This document shows positions 18,001 through 24,000 of a stretch of DNA of 64,000 nt, one piece after another (positions within the stretch are counted from its first letter, which is position 1; each line of letters begins with the position of its first letter). The stretch is from Escherichia coli (GTDB taxonomy: Bacteria; Pseudomonadota; Gammaproteobacteria; Enterobacterales; Enterobacteriaceae), in the NCBI RefSeq assembly GCF_045037415.1, contig NZ_CP173440.1; one strand, 5' to 3'. Made by a program: the position numbers.

Positions 18001-21000
18001 TGAATCTTTTACAACCAAATTTTCTTGTTATTTTACATCTGTGACACGATAGTGTTTTCTCTTCAATTTTTAGACGGCTTTTTAATTCATGGATGCCCTC
18101 CCTCCTGGAGAGTAAGCATTGTAGAATGATTTGTTCTTTTTTTGTTAGTTGTGGGTAATGATTTCCAATCCGGCTAACATTTTTCTTTAAGTATGCATAA
18201 TATAGCTCTTCAATGTTTTTTTTAAATTTCCTTGCATGTTGACATAGATGTCATAATCACACCCTTTAGGATAAAACTTCTCCCCCCCCCCCGAAATGTC
18301 AAGCCACATCCATTGACTTATCATATTTAATGTTTTCCTTAACATTTTATAACCATCCCATTTCCCTGAATAAAAAATCCGGCTATCAACCAATACTCTT
18401 ATATTTCTTTTCTGCTTAATAACTATTGGTTTATCCATCGAGCCTTCATACGTAATATAAACCAGAGGTAGTCCAGTTAACTGCTTTAGGCCGAAATAAA
18501 AATAATAATCATCAGTTAACACTAATGTAACATCCTTATTGCACATAAAGTAAATATATTTTTCCATTGAAACACCAGTTTCATTATCTAATGATGCCTC
18601 CAGTAATTTATCTATTCAATTATAAATGTATTTCTTTTTAAAGCAACATAATACCATTTTACATGAAACATAATGTTTACAGTTTCATGATGAATTATTA
18701 TTCATTTTATGTGCTTAATAAGGTTTGTGTTTGTGTTTGCATGGTAGTAACAAATTGATTTTACTTTGAAAAAATAAATAAAGCATTTCCCTGTGTGATT
18801 AAGAATTCATAAAAAAGAATTGGGTATTTGTTTATTTAGGAATTATTTTAATAATACCCTCTTTTGAAATAATTATCACGATAATTTTATTAAAAACAAC
18901 AATACCCTTGGGGATTAGATTAATCTTACCCACCAATAGTGGACACAGGACTAAGTGAGTAAACTCTCAACCAGAGGTGACTCATGACAAAACCAGTATC
19001 AATCAGCAAGAAGCCCCGTAAACAACATACGCCTGAATTTCGTAACGAAGCCCTGAAACTCGCTGAACGCATCGGTGTGGCCGCCGCAGCCCGTGAACTC
19101 AACCTGTACGAATCTCAGCTTTATGCCTGGCGCAGTAAACAGCAGCAACAAATGAGTTCGTCAGAGCGCGAAAGCGAACTGGCCGCTGAAAATGTCCGCC
19201 TTAAACGACAACTGGCGGAGCAGGCTGAGGAACTGGCCATCCTCCAAAAGGCCGCGACATACTTCGCGAAGCGCCTGAATTTCAGTATCTTTAAGCTTTC
19301 CCCCGCTCGTCATTCCGTAACCCGGGCGAGCAGATTGACGGCAGCTTCCGGCTGAATGATGACTTTTACCTGTTGGAAGCTAAGTGGCATCAGAACAGAA
19401 CGCCAGCGGCAGATTTGCACGTATTCGAAGGAAAACTCAGCACCAAGGCAAAGTGGGCCCGGGGCGTGTTCATCAGATGGATGGGGTTTACTGATGAAGG
19501 TCTGACGGCCTTCGGGAAAGGAAAACGGGTGATCTGTGTCAGCGGTTATGATCTTTACCATTCACTCAGTCATGGTATCGCTCTGCCCGACCTTCTGGAC
19601 GCAAAACTCCGACACGCAGCGGAAACAGGGGAACCTTATGCCCAGTTCGACAGGCTTTACACTCTTAAGGGCATAATAAGCGGCACGCCGAAATAACCTG
19701 CATGGTAATTCAAGAAATTACCCTGCAGAGAGCGGCTTTCTTCACCCAGTCTTCCAGCACCAGACCCGGCACCCGCTCAAACTCTCTCACATTGTTCGTC
19801 ACTAGGACGGCGCCGGCCGCGATAGCGTGCCCAGCAATGGCCGTGTCGTTCGGGCCGATCGGCGTCCCGGCGAGGCGCAGCGCCACCCGGATGTCCGTCG
19901 TGGCGTCCACCGCGGCCCGGTCCCAGGGCAGGATGGCATCGAGGCGCGCGCAGAACGCGTCGACCAGCTGAATATGGCGCGGCGAGGCCTTCGGGCCGGT
20001 GGCGCCGAAGCGCATCTCGGCATACGTCACGGCCGAGACCACGATGCGATCACCGCGCAGCACCGCCTGTTCCAGGCGCTTCAGCACCGCTGCCGGCTGC
20101 TCGCGCATGATGAACGAGCAGATGTTAGTGTCGAGCATCCAGGTTTTCTTCATGGCTCAAAGCGTCCTTCATCGCTGACCACATCCTCACGCTCCGCCAT
20201 AAAGTCCGGAGCGGCCCTGTCCAGCTGCGCGAACGAGCCCCAGGTCGGCCGGACGGGACGCAGAATGATGCTGTCCCCTTCCCGGACGATCTCCAGCTCG
20301 CTGACGCCGTCAAAATCCAGGTCCCGGGGCAGACGGATGGCGCGGTTATTGCCGTTTTTAAATATCGAAACTGTGCGCATGGATGTTCCTCCAACTGATC
20401 ATGCATGATGTGTGAGTGCATATGTGCAGTATATGCCTGCCAGATTGGTTTGTATAGGTGTCGCATATGCAGATGACTGGCATATGCGTATGTCTGCCCT
20501 ATGCAGATGCGCGGAATATGGATATGCTGTGCATATCCTGTTTTCTCATTTCTCCACCGCAGATCCGAAAAATACCACAGCTGGAGGTGGCTGTTTGAAC
20601 CTGCGATTCAGTGAGATAACAGGAACTGACGGCCGGTCAGCGGGTAAACGCCTTCAGAAAAAGTCACCCTGGGCGAGAAAATGGAAGTGGGGAAAATGGC
20701 ATGAAGGAATTAAATAACCAATTAAAATCAGATAAATAGTGGGTTTTCGTGCCTTGAATCGGGCGAAATTTAATGTTTTCGGAAGTGAGAGGTTGCCTGA
20801 TAATGGCATCAGGCAGCTGCCGACCGGTGATATGGTGATTTACAATAATGCCGGACAGTACCTGATTTGCGCGATCTATTAAACCTGGCACCGGGCTGAC
20901 AGTCTTTAATTGAGCGACCTGCAGGCCTCTATATAGTTTTATCCCTCGTCCGGCGTCATACCGGAGCCACTGATACAGGATGTCCTGATGCACTTTTATG

Positions 21001-24000
21001 TTGATGAAACCGGCCATACCGGACCGAACCTTTTTGACAGCACTCAGCCGATACTGTCCTACGGCGTGCTGTCCTCACCCGATGATCTCGATACTGTCGC
21101 GGAGCCTGCCCTCGCTGCGCTGCGTAAAAAAATGGGGGTGGTGCGACTGCACGCCGCCGAACTGGGTATGCACCGCCTGGATAACGTCATCGATACGTTA
21201 CTGGTTCTGCAGAAAAAGCACCGTATCCGCTTTGATATCTGGCAGGTGGTCAAACGCGATCACGCCATCATTTCCTTCTTCGATCAGGTGTTTGACCAGG
21301 GGATGAATCCGGTGGTGCCCTGGACGGCCTACTGGACCCCGCTTCGCTATCCCCTGCTGATAAATCTGGCCCGGCTGTTTGATGATGAGCTAGCGGAAAA
21401 AGCCTGGCGCGCCCGTCTGGAAGCCCACGATGGCCGGTCGGCGGCGTTGTTGGGGGAAGTCTGCAGCGTACTGCTTTCACGTGTCGGGATGCTGGGCGAT
21501 CCCCGTTTCATTGAAATTGTGACTGATGCGCTGTCGTGGGCAATGGCCCACTTTGATGAACTCAGCTACAACTGCAAAACCAATAAAGAAAAACTGCAGA
21601 TCATGCCAAACATGATTGGCTTTCAGTCCGTGCTTCATGGGATCTGCCACCGGCTAGGCGCTCCCAACCGCAAGGCCCGCATCATTGTTGATCAGCAATC
21701 GCAGTTCAACACCACCCAGCGGGAGTTGAGCGTATTTTATCGTCAGATTCGCGCTCAGCCATGGGAGCTGGGGCCAGGTCTGCCGGTGATGGACATGAAA
21801 AACATGCCAGAGCAACCGCTGGTCTTCCAGTCTGGTACGCAGAGCGCCGGACTGGAACTGGTTGATCTCTATCTGTGGATCTTCAAACGCTTTATGGAAG
21901 GTAAAGAACTAACCCGGCCGCTGACACGCCTGGTTTATACCAACCGGCATACCTCTATCACCTCCAGCGTGTCACTGGACGCGATCGGCAAACAGTTTAA
22001 AGCGTTCATGGAGACCCTGCCGGAGCCAACGGCGGACATGTTGCAAAAAGGGCGTGAACTTCAGGCCCGGGAAGAAGCCCGCCGTCTGCAGCACCGGGTT
22101 CCCGGTTTCACTAGCATCTGACCGGCGGGTAGCACGATGGAAAATCAGGAGCACCTGACGCTGATCCACTCGCTGATCAAAACCCACGCCTTCAACGGTT
22201 ATACCCTAGTCAGCACGAAGTACTGGCAGACGCCCTCGGTCAGTGACATTTCCGTGGTCCGGGGGCTGATCCCCCTGACTGACCTGGAGCTGGCCCACCG
22301 GCTGGCGGTGGACCCACGAACTATCCGCAAATGGAAATCCGGTCAGACACAGATGGTGTTCACCACCTGGTGCTGTCTGTGCTGGCTGGCCGGGCTGGGC
22401 ATGCCGCTGGATAACGAAATCAGCGACTGAAGACGCGACGGTAGATACGGCGGAAAATATACCGGCGGTAATATCGCCAGCTGCATGTCCAGATATAGGG
22501 AAGCTCGTCAAAGTGGGTTAAGAACCAGGTGAGGCTCCGGTACGCTACGACAACGGCCCAGATGAACTTACCGATGGCGATGAGGGTGAGGATGACAGTA
22601 AATACTGCTGCGATAAATGTAGACATAGTGTTCTCCTTTATGTCCGGGTTGATGTGCAGGTATTTACTGTTGACGAGTGGACTTAAAGGCCGCTTTTCCG
22701 CAAAAAGTGAAAATAAATTCGTTTTTCGCCTTTTATTGCCGTTATGTATTGAATAAGACAGAACCTTTGTTGATTACGCATTAATGCCGTTTTTGCAATA
22801 ATTTTTCACTTTATTTCTTATTTTGTTCGCAATGTCTCTGTTTCGTTCCTCAGATCCGAAAAAAGGTAGTTCCGGATCTCAGTAAAATCGTATGAATTTT
22901 GAGTTGTCTCCACTCCTTCCCTTTTTCAAAATGTTATCTATAACTGGCTGAGGAACTTCACTGCTGCGGAGGCTAATTTGGGCGTAAAAATTACAGGTAT
23001 AGATAAATTGCAGAAACAATTGAAAGAAGTTGAGGAAGCGGCTGAAACCCTTAACGGTAGTTATCCGGTAAGTTTTGATGCAAACGATCCTGTCAGCATT
23101 GAAACTGCGATTCAGGAAGCGTACAGCATGTTGGAGGAGCGAGCCTCACGGTATGCCGCTAATCCGATGATTAGTCCCATGATCGAGGCCATGAAAGAGG
23201 ATTTGCGTCAGCAAATTCTGGATAGTGCCGAACAGCAAAGACAGGAGAACGGGCAGGATGGCAATTGACATTTTTCAGTCACTCAAAAATTGTGTGTATG
23301 ATTTGCAGCGTGCTGATGCACAGAACTATCAGCAACCACTGAAACAACTGGCCCGGCTCCTGAACGACGGTAATCTACAGGCTGTTAACGAACGCCTGAC
23401 ATGTGATGTCGATCTTGACGCCTTTCTGGCGAAAAGTCATGAAACCGAATCCAGTATGGCCGGCTCCGCCATCCTGCAGTGGCCTGAAGAACCGCGTGAA
23501 ATTTTAGGCCTGAAGCTTTTGTTAATCAGGAAAATGTCCGTTAACGATAATTTCGCATTCAATTTTTGCCACACGTTTTTCTATGACCGAAAAATTATTG
23601 AATCTGTCCGTAAGTTCACATCCTCGTTACTGGTAACTTTTGTTCGCGACTACCAGCTGTATGTTGAGAATGAATCCGATCCTGATCCGGTAGTAATACG
23701 TCAGGTCTCGCGCAAAATTTTTATTGTTCACGGCCATGATAATGATGCCCTTCAGTCTGTTGCCCGCTTTATATCCCGGATAGGGCTGGAGGAAATCATT
23801 CTCTCTGAACGTCCTGATGGCTCAAGGACTGTAATCGAGAAATTTGAAGCGGAGTCAGGAGATGTCAGCTTTGCCATAGTGCTGATGACACCCGACGACA
23901 GTGGAAATGCCCTGGCATCTGAAAACACACGACTGCGTGCACGCCAGAATGTCCTGTATGAACTGGGATATTTCGCGGGTAAGCTTGGGCGCGGGAAAGT

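What the first reader, a model, noticed from the sequence alone, without database searches (positions are those of the whole stretch)
20560..22863. Identical 13-mer CAGATCCGAAAAA upstream of both the DUF3800 gene and the TIR-like cassette
The motif occurs at 20560-20572 (about 415 nt upstream of the DUF3800 start) and at 22851-22863 (about 115 nt upstream of the small-ORF start). At the second site it forms the left arm of a hairpin (AGATCCG ... CGGATCT, 22852-22879). A 13-mer repeated by chance in 64 kb is unlikely (expected about 0.002), so this may be a shared regulatory site or a recombination scar.
Basis: seen in the sequence. Interest (0 to 1): 0.35.

Follow-up and report, generated by a model that had tools for sequence, protein, structure and literature searches.

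The report
Plasmid recombination site rfsF, plus remnant
The repeated 13-mer is one arm of rfsF, the known 28-bp site where the plasmid recombinase ResD cuts and rejoins DNA: the second copy is an intact, naturally used site and the first is a broken half-site, so it marks where gene modules were joined rather than a shared gene switch.

Summary
The chance argument is wrong: dinucleotide shuffles of the window give about 36 repeated 13-mer pairs, and 87% of shuffles have one within 2.5 kb. Comparative evidence still shows the repeat is real.

The window is a Klebsiella pneumoniae pLVPK/pK2044-type virulence plasmid. Both copies are the left arm of rfsF, the 28-bp ResD site of F-like plasmids (F: AGATCCGAAAA-CCCCAA-GTTACGGATCT).

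- **Site 2 (22852-22879)** is a complete core, AGATCCGAAAA-AAGGTA-GTTCCGGATCT. It fits the published "28-bp fusion site" pattern for pLVPK-like plasmids (PMC8299605). All four reciprocal flank combinations occur in public plasmids, consistent with a ~91-kb inversion against a second core next to resD. The window junction is in 540 records and the recombinant junction in 53.
- **Site 1 (20561-20577)** keeps only the left arm and spacer. Other plasmids have a full rfsF and resD at this position after vapBC. Homology stops exactly at the spacer/right-arm boundary.

The motif travels with ResD, not with the 97-aa protein. This is known biology. The half-site, the inversion isomers and the rfsF-bracketed DUF3800 modules are minor additions.

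The parts
20560..20572 (+). 13-mer copy 1 (CAGATCCGAAAAA)
   Evidence: Exact match; sequence read.
20561..20577 (+). rfsF half-site: left arm AGATCCGAAAA (20561-20571) plus 6-bp spacer ATACCA (20572-20577)
   Evidence: Alignment A2. LR890741, CP083844 and CP057263 carry the same vapBC-upstream module followed by a full core (left arm, spacer, GTTCCGGATCT or GTCCCGGATCT). Identity of the window to LR890741 ends after 20577. Megablast homology ends at query positions 172, 178 or 181 in many plasmids.
20578..20588 (+). Position of the lost right arm (CAGCTGGAGGT, 5 of 11 matches to GTTCCGGATCT). This is the breakpoint where sequence specific to the virulence-plasmid family begins.
   Evidence: arm match count; 20578-20985 is found only in this plasmid family (597 records, all at least 95% identical, 596 of them at least 99%).
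20381..20560 (+). vapBC upstream region with GCATATGC-type repeats. It is the conserved left flank of vapBC-linked rfsF sites in IncR/IncF-type plasmids.
   Evidence: Alignment A2, near-identical in 5 plasmids. PMC9412624 describes rfsF-resD adjacent to vagCD in the IncR backbone. Tandem 17-mers at 20463-20496 (D4).
19710..20380 (-). vapC (19710-20153) and vapB (20150-20380) toxin-antitoxin genes, the usual left neighbour of this rfsF type
   Evidence: ORFs; RefSeq annotation of pK2044; VapBC lies on the left-arm side of full sites (within 0.5 kb of the core) in 3 GTDB loci (L023, L024, L025) and ~4 kb away in a fourth, L022.
20578..22851 (+). 2.29-kb module lying between the half-site and the full site, which are direct repeats 2291 nt apart. 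It holds DUF3800 (20988-22121), the 97-aa protein (22137-22430) and the YuaX-family 68-aa gene (22420-22626, minus strand).
   Evidence: Orthologous DUF3800 modules in E. coli p4_1_1.1 and a Pluralibacter contig are likewise bracketed by a degenerate rfsF-like site and a full rfsF with resD.
22851..22863 (+). 13-mer copy 2
   Evidence: Exact match.
22852..22879 (+). Complete rfsF core: left arm AGATCCGAAAA (22852-22862), spacer AAGGTA (22863-22868), right arm GTTCCGGATCT (22869-22879)
   Evidence: It is the only full site in the window. It fits the published pattern AGATCCGNAANNNNNNNNTTNCGGATCT (PMC8299605). It is the same kind of 28-mer as in F (NC_002483 nt 45922) and R64 (nt 43620). Four-way reciprocal junctions are in alignment A3. 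The exact core is present in more than 1100 plasmid records.
22880..26432 (.). Right-flank module joined at the core: small ORF (22978-23268, +), TIR-like protein (23225/23258-24157, +) and a PifA-like KAP NTPase (24206-26432, minus strand, frameshifted in this window)
   Evidence: Pfam CAP12-PCTIR_TIR 6e-37 and KAP_NTPase 2e-43. PADLOC PDC-S35 8e-66 and PifA 2e-240. In the inversion isomer this module sits behind the diguanylate-cyclase flank instead.

Best explanation
Both 13-mers are the left, recombinase-binding arm of rfsF. This is the 28-bp core site of the ResD (D protein) tyrosine-recombinase system of F-like plasmids, used for multimer resolution and replicon fusion.

**Site 2 (22852-22879)** is an intact core with two inverted 10-11-bp arms around a 6-8-bp spacer. 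ResD is encoded elsewhere on this virulence plasmid and is 90% identical to F ResD. It is expected to bind both arms, cleave at the spacer borders and exchange strands through a Holliday junction. The partners are the identical core next to resD on the same plasmid, in inverted orientation ~91 kb away (giving inversion isomers), or rfsF sites on other plasmids (giving reversible cointegrates).

**Site 1 (20561-20577)** is what remains of the rfsF that normally follows vapBC in IncR/IncF-type backbones. The left arm and spacer survive. The right arm, the accessory region and resD have been replaced by the DUF3800 module. With no right arm and a different spacer, it cannot recombine with site 2, so the 2.29-kb module between them is fixed.

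**Shown here:** the identity of the sites, the breakpoint positions and the reciprocal junctions.

**Inferred:** that ResD made the site-1 junction through a secondary-site (illegitimate) exchange, and that ResD, rather than another recombinase, catalysed the inversion.
For: 1. **Source.** The window is 100% identical to pK2044 and pLVPK.
2. **Match to the known site.** F and R64 carry AGATCCGAAAACCCCAAGTTACGGATCT at the positions the literature gives for rfsF. R64 nt 43,620 is the start of the 'rfsF to yfcA' stretch (PMC8004404). F nt 45922 is the start of the RepFIA block containing rfsF (PMC4398462).
3. **Published pattern.** Site 2 fits AGATCCGNAANNNNNNNNTTNCGGATCT. Xu et al. 2021 showed experimentally that this is the reversible fusion site between pLVPK-like plasmids and an F derivative, and equated it with rfsF (PMC8299605).
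4. **Reciprocal junctions (alignment A3).** Four combinations exist, each exact to the 28-bp core:
   - [yuaX]-core-[TIR] in the window;
   - [diguanylate cyclase]-core-[resD] in CP026587;
   - [yuaX]-core-[resD] in pVir_020079;
   - [diguanylate cyclase]-core-[TIR] in pKP13.
5. **Both products in one plasmid.** CP116492 carries both recombinant junctions. The two cores are inverted and ~91 kb apart. Junction counts are 540 versus 53 records.
6. **Site 1 alignment (A2).** Three plasmids have vapBC, a full core and then the resD module. The window and CP092408 both lose homology exactly after the 6-bp spacer.
7. **Recombinase.** The pK2044-type ResD is 90% identical to F ResD and is in the Pfam Phage_integrase family.
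8. **Genome scan.** A GTDB-wide pattern scan found 14 loci, 13 from Enterobacteriaceae genomes and one a 1.1-kb contig labelled a Lachnospiraceae MAG. ResD lies on the right-arm side in 7 of 8 loci with enough flank. The spacer varies while the arms are fixed. No locus has a homologue of the 97-aa protein.
9. **Literature.** Homology breaks and insertions at rfsF are described in IncR and IncI1 plasmids (PMC9412624, PMC8004404).
Against: - No resD gene lies in the 64-kb window. Its presence on the same plasmid is inferred from records 100% identical across the queried segment (window 20400-23300), such as CP026587 and CP024708, which carry both.
- Site 2 in the window arrangement lacks the conserved right-hand accessory region found next to resD-linked cores. 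Its efficiency as a resolution site is therefore unknown.
- No binding or cleavage by ResD was tested here.
- The event that created the site-1 junction cannot be reconstructed, because the 400 bp to its right occurs nowhere else. General illegitimate recombination at a fragile site cannot be excluded.
- In-window statistics alone do not reject chance.
Confidence: 0.9

Rival explanations
1. The motif is a shared cis-regulatory operator. A common regulator, either the 97-aa protein or ResD acting as a repressor, would bind the 13-mer upstream of DUF3800 and of the small-ORF/TIR cassette and co-regulate them.
For: - Both copies are intergenic, on the same strand and upstream of + strand genes.
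- Degenerate rfsF-like sites also lie about 100 nt upstream of DUF3800 orthologues in E. coli and Pluralibacter plasmids.
- From general knowledge, F D protein (ResD) was reported to act also as a transcriptional repressor (Lane et al. 1986). This was not checked here.
Against: - The motif tracks ResD, not the 97-aa protein: 0 of 14 genome loci have a homologue of it. F and R64 also carry the site; no tblastn for a homologue of the 97-aa protein was run on their loci, and none is annotated in the F stretch fetched.
- Copy 1 is 416 nt from the ATG and about 340 nt upstream of the only promoter-like site.
- The window's DUF3800 upstream region is not homologous to that of the orthologues.
- In the inversion isomer the TIR cassette keeps the core but swaps everything to its left. 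This is how a recombination site behaves.
- The 97-aa protein matches no Pfam family.
Confidence: 0.06
2. The repeat is a chance coincidence: two unrelated sequences that happen to share 13 bases.
For: - Shuffles give about 36 repeated 13-mer pairs per window, and 87% of shuffles have at least one pair within 2.5 kb.
- There are 32 other exact 13-nt repeats in the window.
- The flanks do not align.
Against: - At the position of copy 1, related plasmids carry a full rfsF core whose left arm is this sequence.
- Copy 2 is the left arm of a full core.
- Both copies therefore descend from the same kind of site, so the shared bases are homologous, not coincidental.
Confidence: 0.02
3. The hairpin at site 2 acts at the RNA level, as an intrinsic terminator or a structured RNA element, and the 13-mer is part of that element.
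For: The minus-strand transcript would fold at -16.5 kcal/mol, z = -4.3.
Against: - No T-run follows the stem on either strand, and the terminator scan did not report it.
- No Rfam family reaches its gathering score in 20300-23100.
- No gene ends next to it on either strand.
- Copy 1 has no stem partner: its fold has z = -0.46.
- Across loci the loop (spacer) sequence varies freely while both arms stay fixed. This fits a protein-bound DNA site.
Confidence: 0.02

Closest known systems
rfsF / ResD (D protein) site-specific recombination system of the F plasmid (RepFIA region), also present in IncI1 (R64, ColIb-P9), IncR and pSLT-type plasmids
   Same: - Same 28-bp architecture and the same arm sequences, AGATCCGNAA ... 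TTNCGGATCT.
- The recombinase on this plasmid family is 90% identical to F ResD.
- Same behaviour as a module boundary and exchange point.
   Different: - The spacer is AAGGTA (CCCCAA in F) and one right-arm base differs (GTTCC versus GTTAC).
- The window copy is not next to ccdAB or resD and lacks the right-hand accessory region.
- A second, resD-linked copy lies outside the window.
- Site 1 retains only the left arm and spacer.
'28-bp fusion site' of pLVPK-like K. pneumoniae virulence plasmids (Xu et al. 2021, Genome Med, PMC8299605)
   Same: Site 2 matches their search pattern exactly and lies in the same plasmid family. They showed reversible fusion with an F derivative at such sites, and found the site in 84 of 85 virulence plasmids.
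   Different: - They did not, in the text read here, describe two inverted copies in one virulence plasmid, the ~91-kb inversion isomers, or the half-site after vapBC.
- They state that the significance of plasmids with several sites 'remains to be investigated'.
- Which of the two copies was used in their hybrid was not determined here.
Cre/loxP, Flp/FRT and XerCD/dif-cer-psi tyrosine-recombinase core sites
   Same: Two inverted recombinase-binding arms flank a short spacer in which strand exchange occurs. Their roles are in multimer resolution and inversion (general knowledge; comparison also made in PMC5587640).
   Different: The arm sequences and the recombinase are different. ResD/rfsF apparently tolerates different spacers between partners, since F and pLVPK spacers differ yet the plasmids fuse (PMC8299605). 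Cre and Flp require matching spacers.

Membership tests
rfsF (ResD recombination core site) | 28-bp core with inverted arms AGATCCGNAA / TTNCGGATCT around an 8-bp spacer (equivalently 11-6-11) | tested here: met
   Site 2 at 22852-22879 matches with no mismatch to the published pattern. F and R64 carry the same architecture at the published rfsF coordinates.
rfsF (ResD recombination core site) | The same core definition applied to site 1 (20561-20588) | tested here: not met
   Only the left arm and spacer are present. The right-arm position matches 5 of 11 bases. Site 1 is therefore filed as an rfsF-derived half-site, not as a site.
rfsF (ResD recombination core site) | A cognate ResD-type tyrosine recombinase is encoded on the same replicon | tested here: met
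   resD is not in the window. Plasmids 100% identical across the queried segment (window 20400-23300), CP026587 and CP024708, carry a 259-aa integrase that is 90% identical to F ResD and has the Pfam Phage_integrase domain.
rfsF (ResD recombination core site) | Conservative reciprocal exchange occurs at the core | tested here: met
   All four flank combinations are found around an identical core. Both recombinant junctions occur within one plasmid, CP116492. Junction counts are 540 and 53 records. Experimental fusion at this site type is reported in PMC8299605.
rfsF (ResD recombination core site) | Conserved right-hand region (oriV1-like sequence with a second inverted AAGTCGGATCT motif about 190 bp away) leading to ccdAB and/or resD | tested here: not met
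   This region is present next to the resD-linked cores in L002, L007, L008, L009 and L011. In the window, the right flank of site 2 is the small-ORF/TIR module instead.
rfsF (ResD recombination core site) | ResD binding and cleavage at the spacer borders | not testable with these tools
   This needs purified protein or in vivo assays.
Operator of a local transcription factor (the 97-aa protein) | The motif co-occurs with the regulator gene and lies near the regulated promoter | tested here: not met
   0 of 14 genome loci with the site encode a homologue of the 97-aa protein, whereas ResD is present in 7 of 8 informative loci. Site 1 is about 340 nt upstream of the promoter-like site.
Intrinsic terminator / structured RNA | A GC-rich stem followed by a T-run, or a match to an RNA family | tested here: not met
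   The terminator scan did not call it. No Rfam match reaches gathering score.
Terminal repeat of an IS or transposon (both copies inside a larger repeated fragment) | Extended repeat flanks and an adjacent transposase | tested here: not met
   The repeat is only 16 nt with one mismatch and the flanks do not align. No transposase lies between or beside the copies.

The most novel reading that the evidence does not exclude
rfsF/ResD may act as a cassette-capture platform for accessory modules, many of them defence-like, on enterobacterial plasmids, rather than only as a multimer-resolution site.

Modules such as DUF3800-HTH-YuaX, DUF3800 with an Abi-like gene, an AAA ATPase and TIR with PifA each end on their right with a pyrimidine-rich flank and a good left arm. 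On their left they begin with a weak or lost right arm. Arrays of such units then accumulate to the left of resD, stabilised by decay of one arm.

On this reading, site 1 and the degenerate sites upstream of DUF3800 in E. coli and Pluralibacter plasmids are fossil cassette boundaries. The two inverted full cores make about 40% of the hypervirulence plasmid invertible, swapping what lies upstream of the TIR/PifA module.
Probability: 0.2. Interest if true: 0.5.

Novelty: already known. Interest (0 to 1): 0.2.

Why it matters
**Annotation.** The motif should be labelled as an rfsF core (22852-22879) and an rfsF half-site (20561-20577), not as a promoter element.

**Biology.** rfsF is the point at which pLVPK-like hypervirulence plasmids fuse reversibly with conjugative IncF plasmids, one published route by which hypervirulence reaches carbapenem-resistant strains (PMC8299605).

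**What this analysis adds.**
- The virulence plasmid carries two full cores in inverted orientation. About 9% of sequenced relatives (53 of 593 junction-typed records) are the ~91-kb inversion isomer.
- The core in this window is the copy that is not next to resD. It sits against a TIR/PifA defence-type module.
- Half-sites with breakpoints at the spacer edge mark old module joins.

These points help in interpreting plasmid rearrangements and assembly differences. They do not change the understanding of the system.

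Tried and rejected
- **Chance.** I set this test aside in favour of homology evidence.
- **Larger repeat or mobile-element fragment.** Pairwise alignment of the flanks and a repeat search found only 16 nt of similarity. Rejected.
- **resD in the window.** tblastn found only a weak 36-aa tyrosine-recombinase-like match at the extreme end, 63892-63999. The cognate gene lies outside the window.
- **RNA element or terminator.** The Rfam E-value search, the terminator scan and folding give nothing above threshold. Rejected.
- **Third near-copy at 55408.** It is inside a 351-aa ORF with no right arm, so I treat it as chance.
- **Donor of the 400 bp right of site 1.** A distant blastn found it only in the same plasmid family. 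The partner of that junction cannot be identified.
- **DUF3800 upstream conservation.** The window's upstream region does not align with the conserved upstream region of the E. coli, Pluralibacter and pRHB08 orthologues beyond about 11 nt before the ATG.
- **Accession look-ups.** AP005147 and AP001918 are not in the collections. I used the RefSeq versions NC_005014 and NC_002483 instead.
- **PADLOC.** DUF3800, the 97-aa protein, YuaX and the small ORF have no match.

Full report
**Observation.** The 13-mer CAGATCCGAAAAA occurs exactly at 20560-20572 and 22851-22863 on the + strand. A one-mismatch copy lies at 55408, inside a 351-aa ORF with no partner arm. The distances to the DUF3800 ATG (416 nt) and to the small-ORF start (115 nt) are as stated, and so is the inverted repeat AGATCCG...CGGATCT at 22852-22879. 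The similarity extends to 16 nt with one mismatch, at a spacing of 2291 nt. The wider flanks do not align.

**Statistics.**
- The window holds 49 maximal exact direct repeats of 13 nt or more.
- Dinucleotide shuffles give 36 +/- 8 repeated 13-mer pairs and 2.8 +/- 2.3 pairs within 2.5 kb.
- 87% of shuffles have at least one such near pair.

The window's own statistics therefore cannot show that the repeat is meaningful. The case rests on comparison with other sequences.

**Source.** The segment is 100% identical to K. pneumoniae virulence plasmids pK2044 (NC_006625) and pLVPK (NC_005249), to hundreds of relatives, and to E. coli transconjugants carrying them. The local gene order is:
- vapC-vapB (minus strand);
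- site 1;
- DUF3800, the 97-aa protein and the YuaX-family gene (minus strand);
- site 2;
- the small ORF, the TIR-like protein and a KAP NTPase (minus strand).

**First lead: homology breakpoints.** Megablast matches to other plasmids end or start at the two motif copies.
- Many plasmids match only window 20400 to 20571, 20577 or 20580.
- Some match 20400-22879.
- pKP13 matches from 22849 onward.
- A Salmonella plasmid matches only 22835-22879.

**Site 2.** In the Salmonella plasmid the 45-bp match lies upstream of ccdAB and a 'site-specific integrase'. In pVir_020079 the same sequence is followed by a resD-type integrase module.

The sequence is a 28-bp unit with inverted arms: AGATCCGAAAA-AAGGTA-GTTCCGGATCT.

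F and R64 carry AGATCCGAAAACCCCAAGTTACGGATCT upstream of ccdA and resD. The first base of this 28-mer is R64 nt 43,620, which PMC8004404 gives as the start of the 'rfsF to yfcA' stretch. It is also F nt 45,922, which PMC4398462 gives as the start of the RepFIA block that begins with rfsF.

Xu et al. 2021 (PMC8299605) searched with AGATCCGNAANNNNNNNNTTNCGGATCT. They showed experimentally that pLVPK-like plasmids fuse reversibly with an F derivative at this '28-bp fusion site', which they equate with rfsF. They found the site in 84 of 85 virulence plasmids. Site 2 fits that pattern exactly and is the only full site in the window.

**Recombination at site 2 in nature.** Alignment A3 shows four flank combinations around one identical core:
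- [yuaX side]-core-[small ORF/TIR] in the window;
- [diguanylate-cyclase side]-core-[resD module] in CP026587, which also carries the window junction;
- [yuaX side]-core-[resD module] in pVir_020079;
- [diguanylate-cyclase side]-core-[small ORF/TIR] in pKP13.

CP116492 carries both recombinant junctions in one molecule. From the hit coordinates, the two cores are on opposite strands and about 91 kb apart. The two arrangements are therefore inversion isomers. Junction-specific searches find the window junction in 540 plasmid records and the recombinant junction in 53. The exact core also occurs with other flanks in about 600 further Klebsiella plasmids.

The recombinase next to the second core is 90% identical to F ResD and belongs to the Phage_integrase family. 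It is not encoded in the window.

**Site 1.** Alignment A2 compares the vapBC upstream region in five plasmids.
- In LR890741, CP083844 and CP057263 it is followed by a full core, CAGATCCGAAAA-(ATACCA or CTCCCA)-GTTCCGGATCT or GTCCCGGATCT. The resD-type right flank comes next, and in CP057263 the integrase itself.
- In the window, identity to LR890741 runs through the left arm and the whole spacer (to 20577) and stops at the first base of the right arm.
- CP092408 loses homology at exactly the same position, with a different sequence beyond.

This is where a tyrosine recombinase cleaves. It fits the literature on IncR plasmids, where vagCD and rfsF-resD are backbone neighbours and homology often ends at rfsF, or inserts lie just beyond it (PMC9412624).

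The 400 bp to the right of site 1 occur only in this plasmid family, so the partner of that join cannot be traced. Site 1 has no right arm (5 of 11 matches) and a spacer different from site 2. It should therefore be inert, which would fix the 2.29-kb DUF3800 module between the two direct copies.

**What the motif travels with.** A pattern scan of one genome per species found 14 loci, 13 of them from Enterobacteriaceae genomes and one a 1.1-kb contig labelled a Lachnospiraceae MAG.
- ResD lies on the right-arm side in 7 of the 8 loci with enough flank.
- VapBC lies on the left-arm side in 4, within 0.5 kb of the core in 3 (L023, L024, L025) and about 4 kb away in L022.
- A DUF3800 gene lies on the left in 1.
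- No locus has a homologue of the 97-aa protein.
- The spacer varies freely while the arms are constant.

This argues for a recombinase site and against an operator for the 97-aa protein. The only promoter-like site for DUF3800 (20910-20937) is about 340 nt downstream of site 1. No terminator or Rfam family accounts for the hairpin.

**Orthologous DUF3800 modules.** It is in fact present, but as part of rfsF-like sites.
- In E. coli p4_1_1.1, the DUF3800, HTH and YuaX-like genes lie directly to the left of a canonical rfsF-ccdAB-resD. A degenerate site (AGATCCGAAAA-CTCATT-TAAGAGGATCA) lies 109 nt upstream of DUF3800.
- A Pluralibacter contig shows the same layout, with a better right arm (7 of 11 matches).
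- pRHB08-C21_2 and p461 show further half-sites and full sites at module borders.
- The upstream region shared by these orthologues is not retained in the window.

Together with the defence-type content of the neighbouring modules, this allows a more ambitious reading in which rfsF serves as a capture and exchange point for accessory cassettes. The neighbouring modules are a TIR-like protein matching PDC-S35 and a PifA-like KAP NTPase, and F itself has pifA-pifC beside rfsF. The literature already suggests module acquisition at rfsF. I give this reading low probability on the present evidence.

**Verdict.** The 13-mer is the left arm of rfsF. Copy 2 belongs to an intact site that has recombined in nature and matches the fusion-site type proven experimentally for this plasmid family. 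Copy 1 is a half-site left where a vapBC-linked rfsF was broken at the spacer edge. This is known biology in a well-studied plasmid. The half-site, the two inverted cores with their inversion isomers, and the rfsF-bracketed DUF3800 modules are small additions.

Noticed in passing
window 24206-26432 (minus strand): The KAP-family NTPase is a PifA homologue (PADLOC PifA, E = 2e-240). In this window it is split into two overlapping ORFs (24206-24733 and 24558-26432). pK2044 annotates one intact 2226-bp gene, so the window carries a one-base frameshift or a sequencing error. F carries pifA-pifC immediately left of its rfsF.
   Followed up: partly
window 22978-24157 (+): The small 96-aa ORF overlaps the start of a TIR-like protein (Pfam CAP12-PCTIR_TIR 6e-37; PADLOC candidate system PDC-S35 8e-66). 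This looks like a defence-type pair sitting directly against the rfsF core. In the inversion isomer its upstream neighbour becomes a co-oriented diguanylate-cyclase gene, which could change read-through into it.
   Followed up: partly
related plasmids CP026587 (L011), CP116492 (L030, H128), pVir_020079 (L002), pKP13 (L003): pLVPK-type virulence plasmids exist as two isomers that differ by inversion of about 91 kb between two identical, inverted rfsF cores. The junction counts in PLSDB are 540 and 53 records.
   Followed up: yes
window 20400-20560; alignment A2: The vapBC upstream region is packed with GCATATGC-type palindromes, including tandem 17-mers at 20463-20496. It is almost invariant across Klebsiella, Enterobacter and E. 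coli plasmids, and is probably the VapB operator/promoter region.
   Followed up: no
25 nt to the left of every rfsF left arm (window 22827-22851 and 20536-20560; loci L004-L029): A pyrimidine-rich stretch (ttctc/cttct-type) precedes the left arm in all full and half sites examined, although the flanks are otherwise unrelated. It may be an accessory or bending element of rfsF.
   Followed up: no
L002 6662-6672, L007 about 3370-3380, L008 about 3371-3381, L009 about 530-540, L011 about 4213-4223: A conserved inverted AAGTCGGATCT motif lies about 190 bp to the right of resD-linked cores. It may be the 'second rfsF site' mentioned for pEC958/F (PMC4398462). It is absent from the window's site 2 because the right flank has been exchanged.
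   Followed up: no
L013 (pRHB08-C21_2) 1953 and 5329; L012 2403: Several half-sites share the same left arm and the spacer CTCATT but are followed by different genes (a hypothetical gene, an AAA ATPase, DUF3800). This suggests a recurrent variant site at module borders in E. coli IncF plasmids.
   Followed up: partly
window 63892-63999 (minus strand): There is a weak match (39% over 36 aa) to the C-terminal part of a ResD-like tyrosine recombinase, running off the end of the window. It is a different, partial integrase gene.
   Followed up: no
window 18984-19355 (+): An IS3-family OrfA-like ORF fragment lies just beyond vapC. It suggests an insertion-sequence remnant bordering the vapBC module.
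   Followed up: no
window 38578, 41685, 46246, 56967: GAAAAAGTTACTTTTT or its 13-15-nt core recurs four times in the window. This is more copies than any other short repeat there. It was not examined.
   Followed up: no
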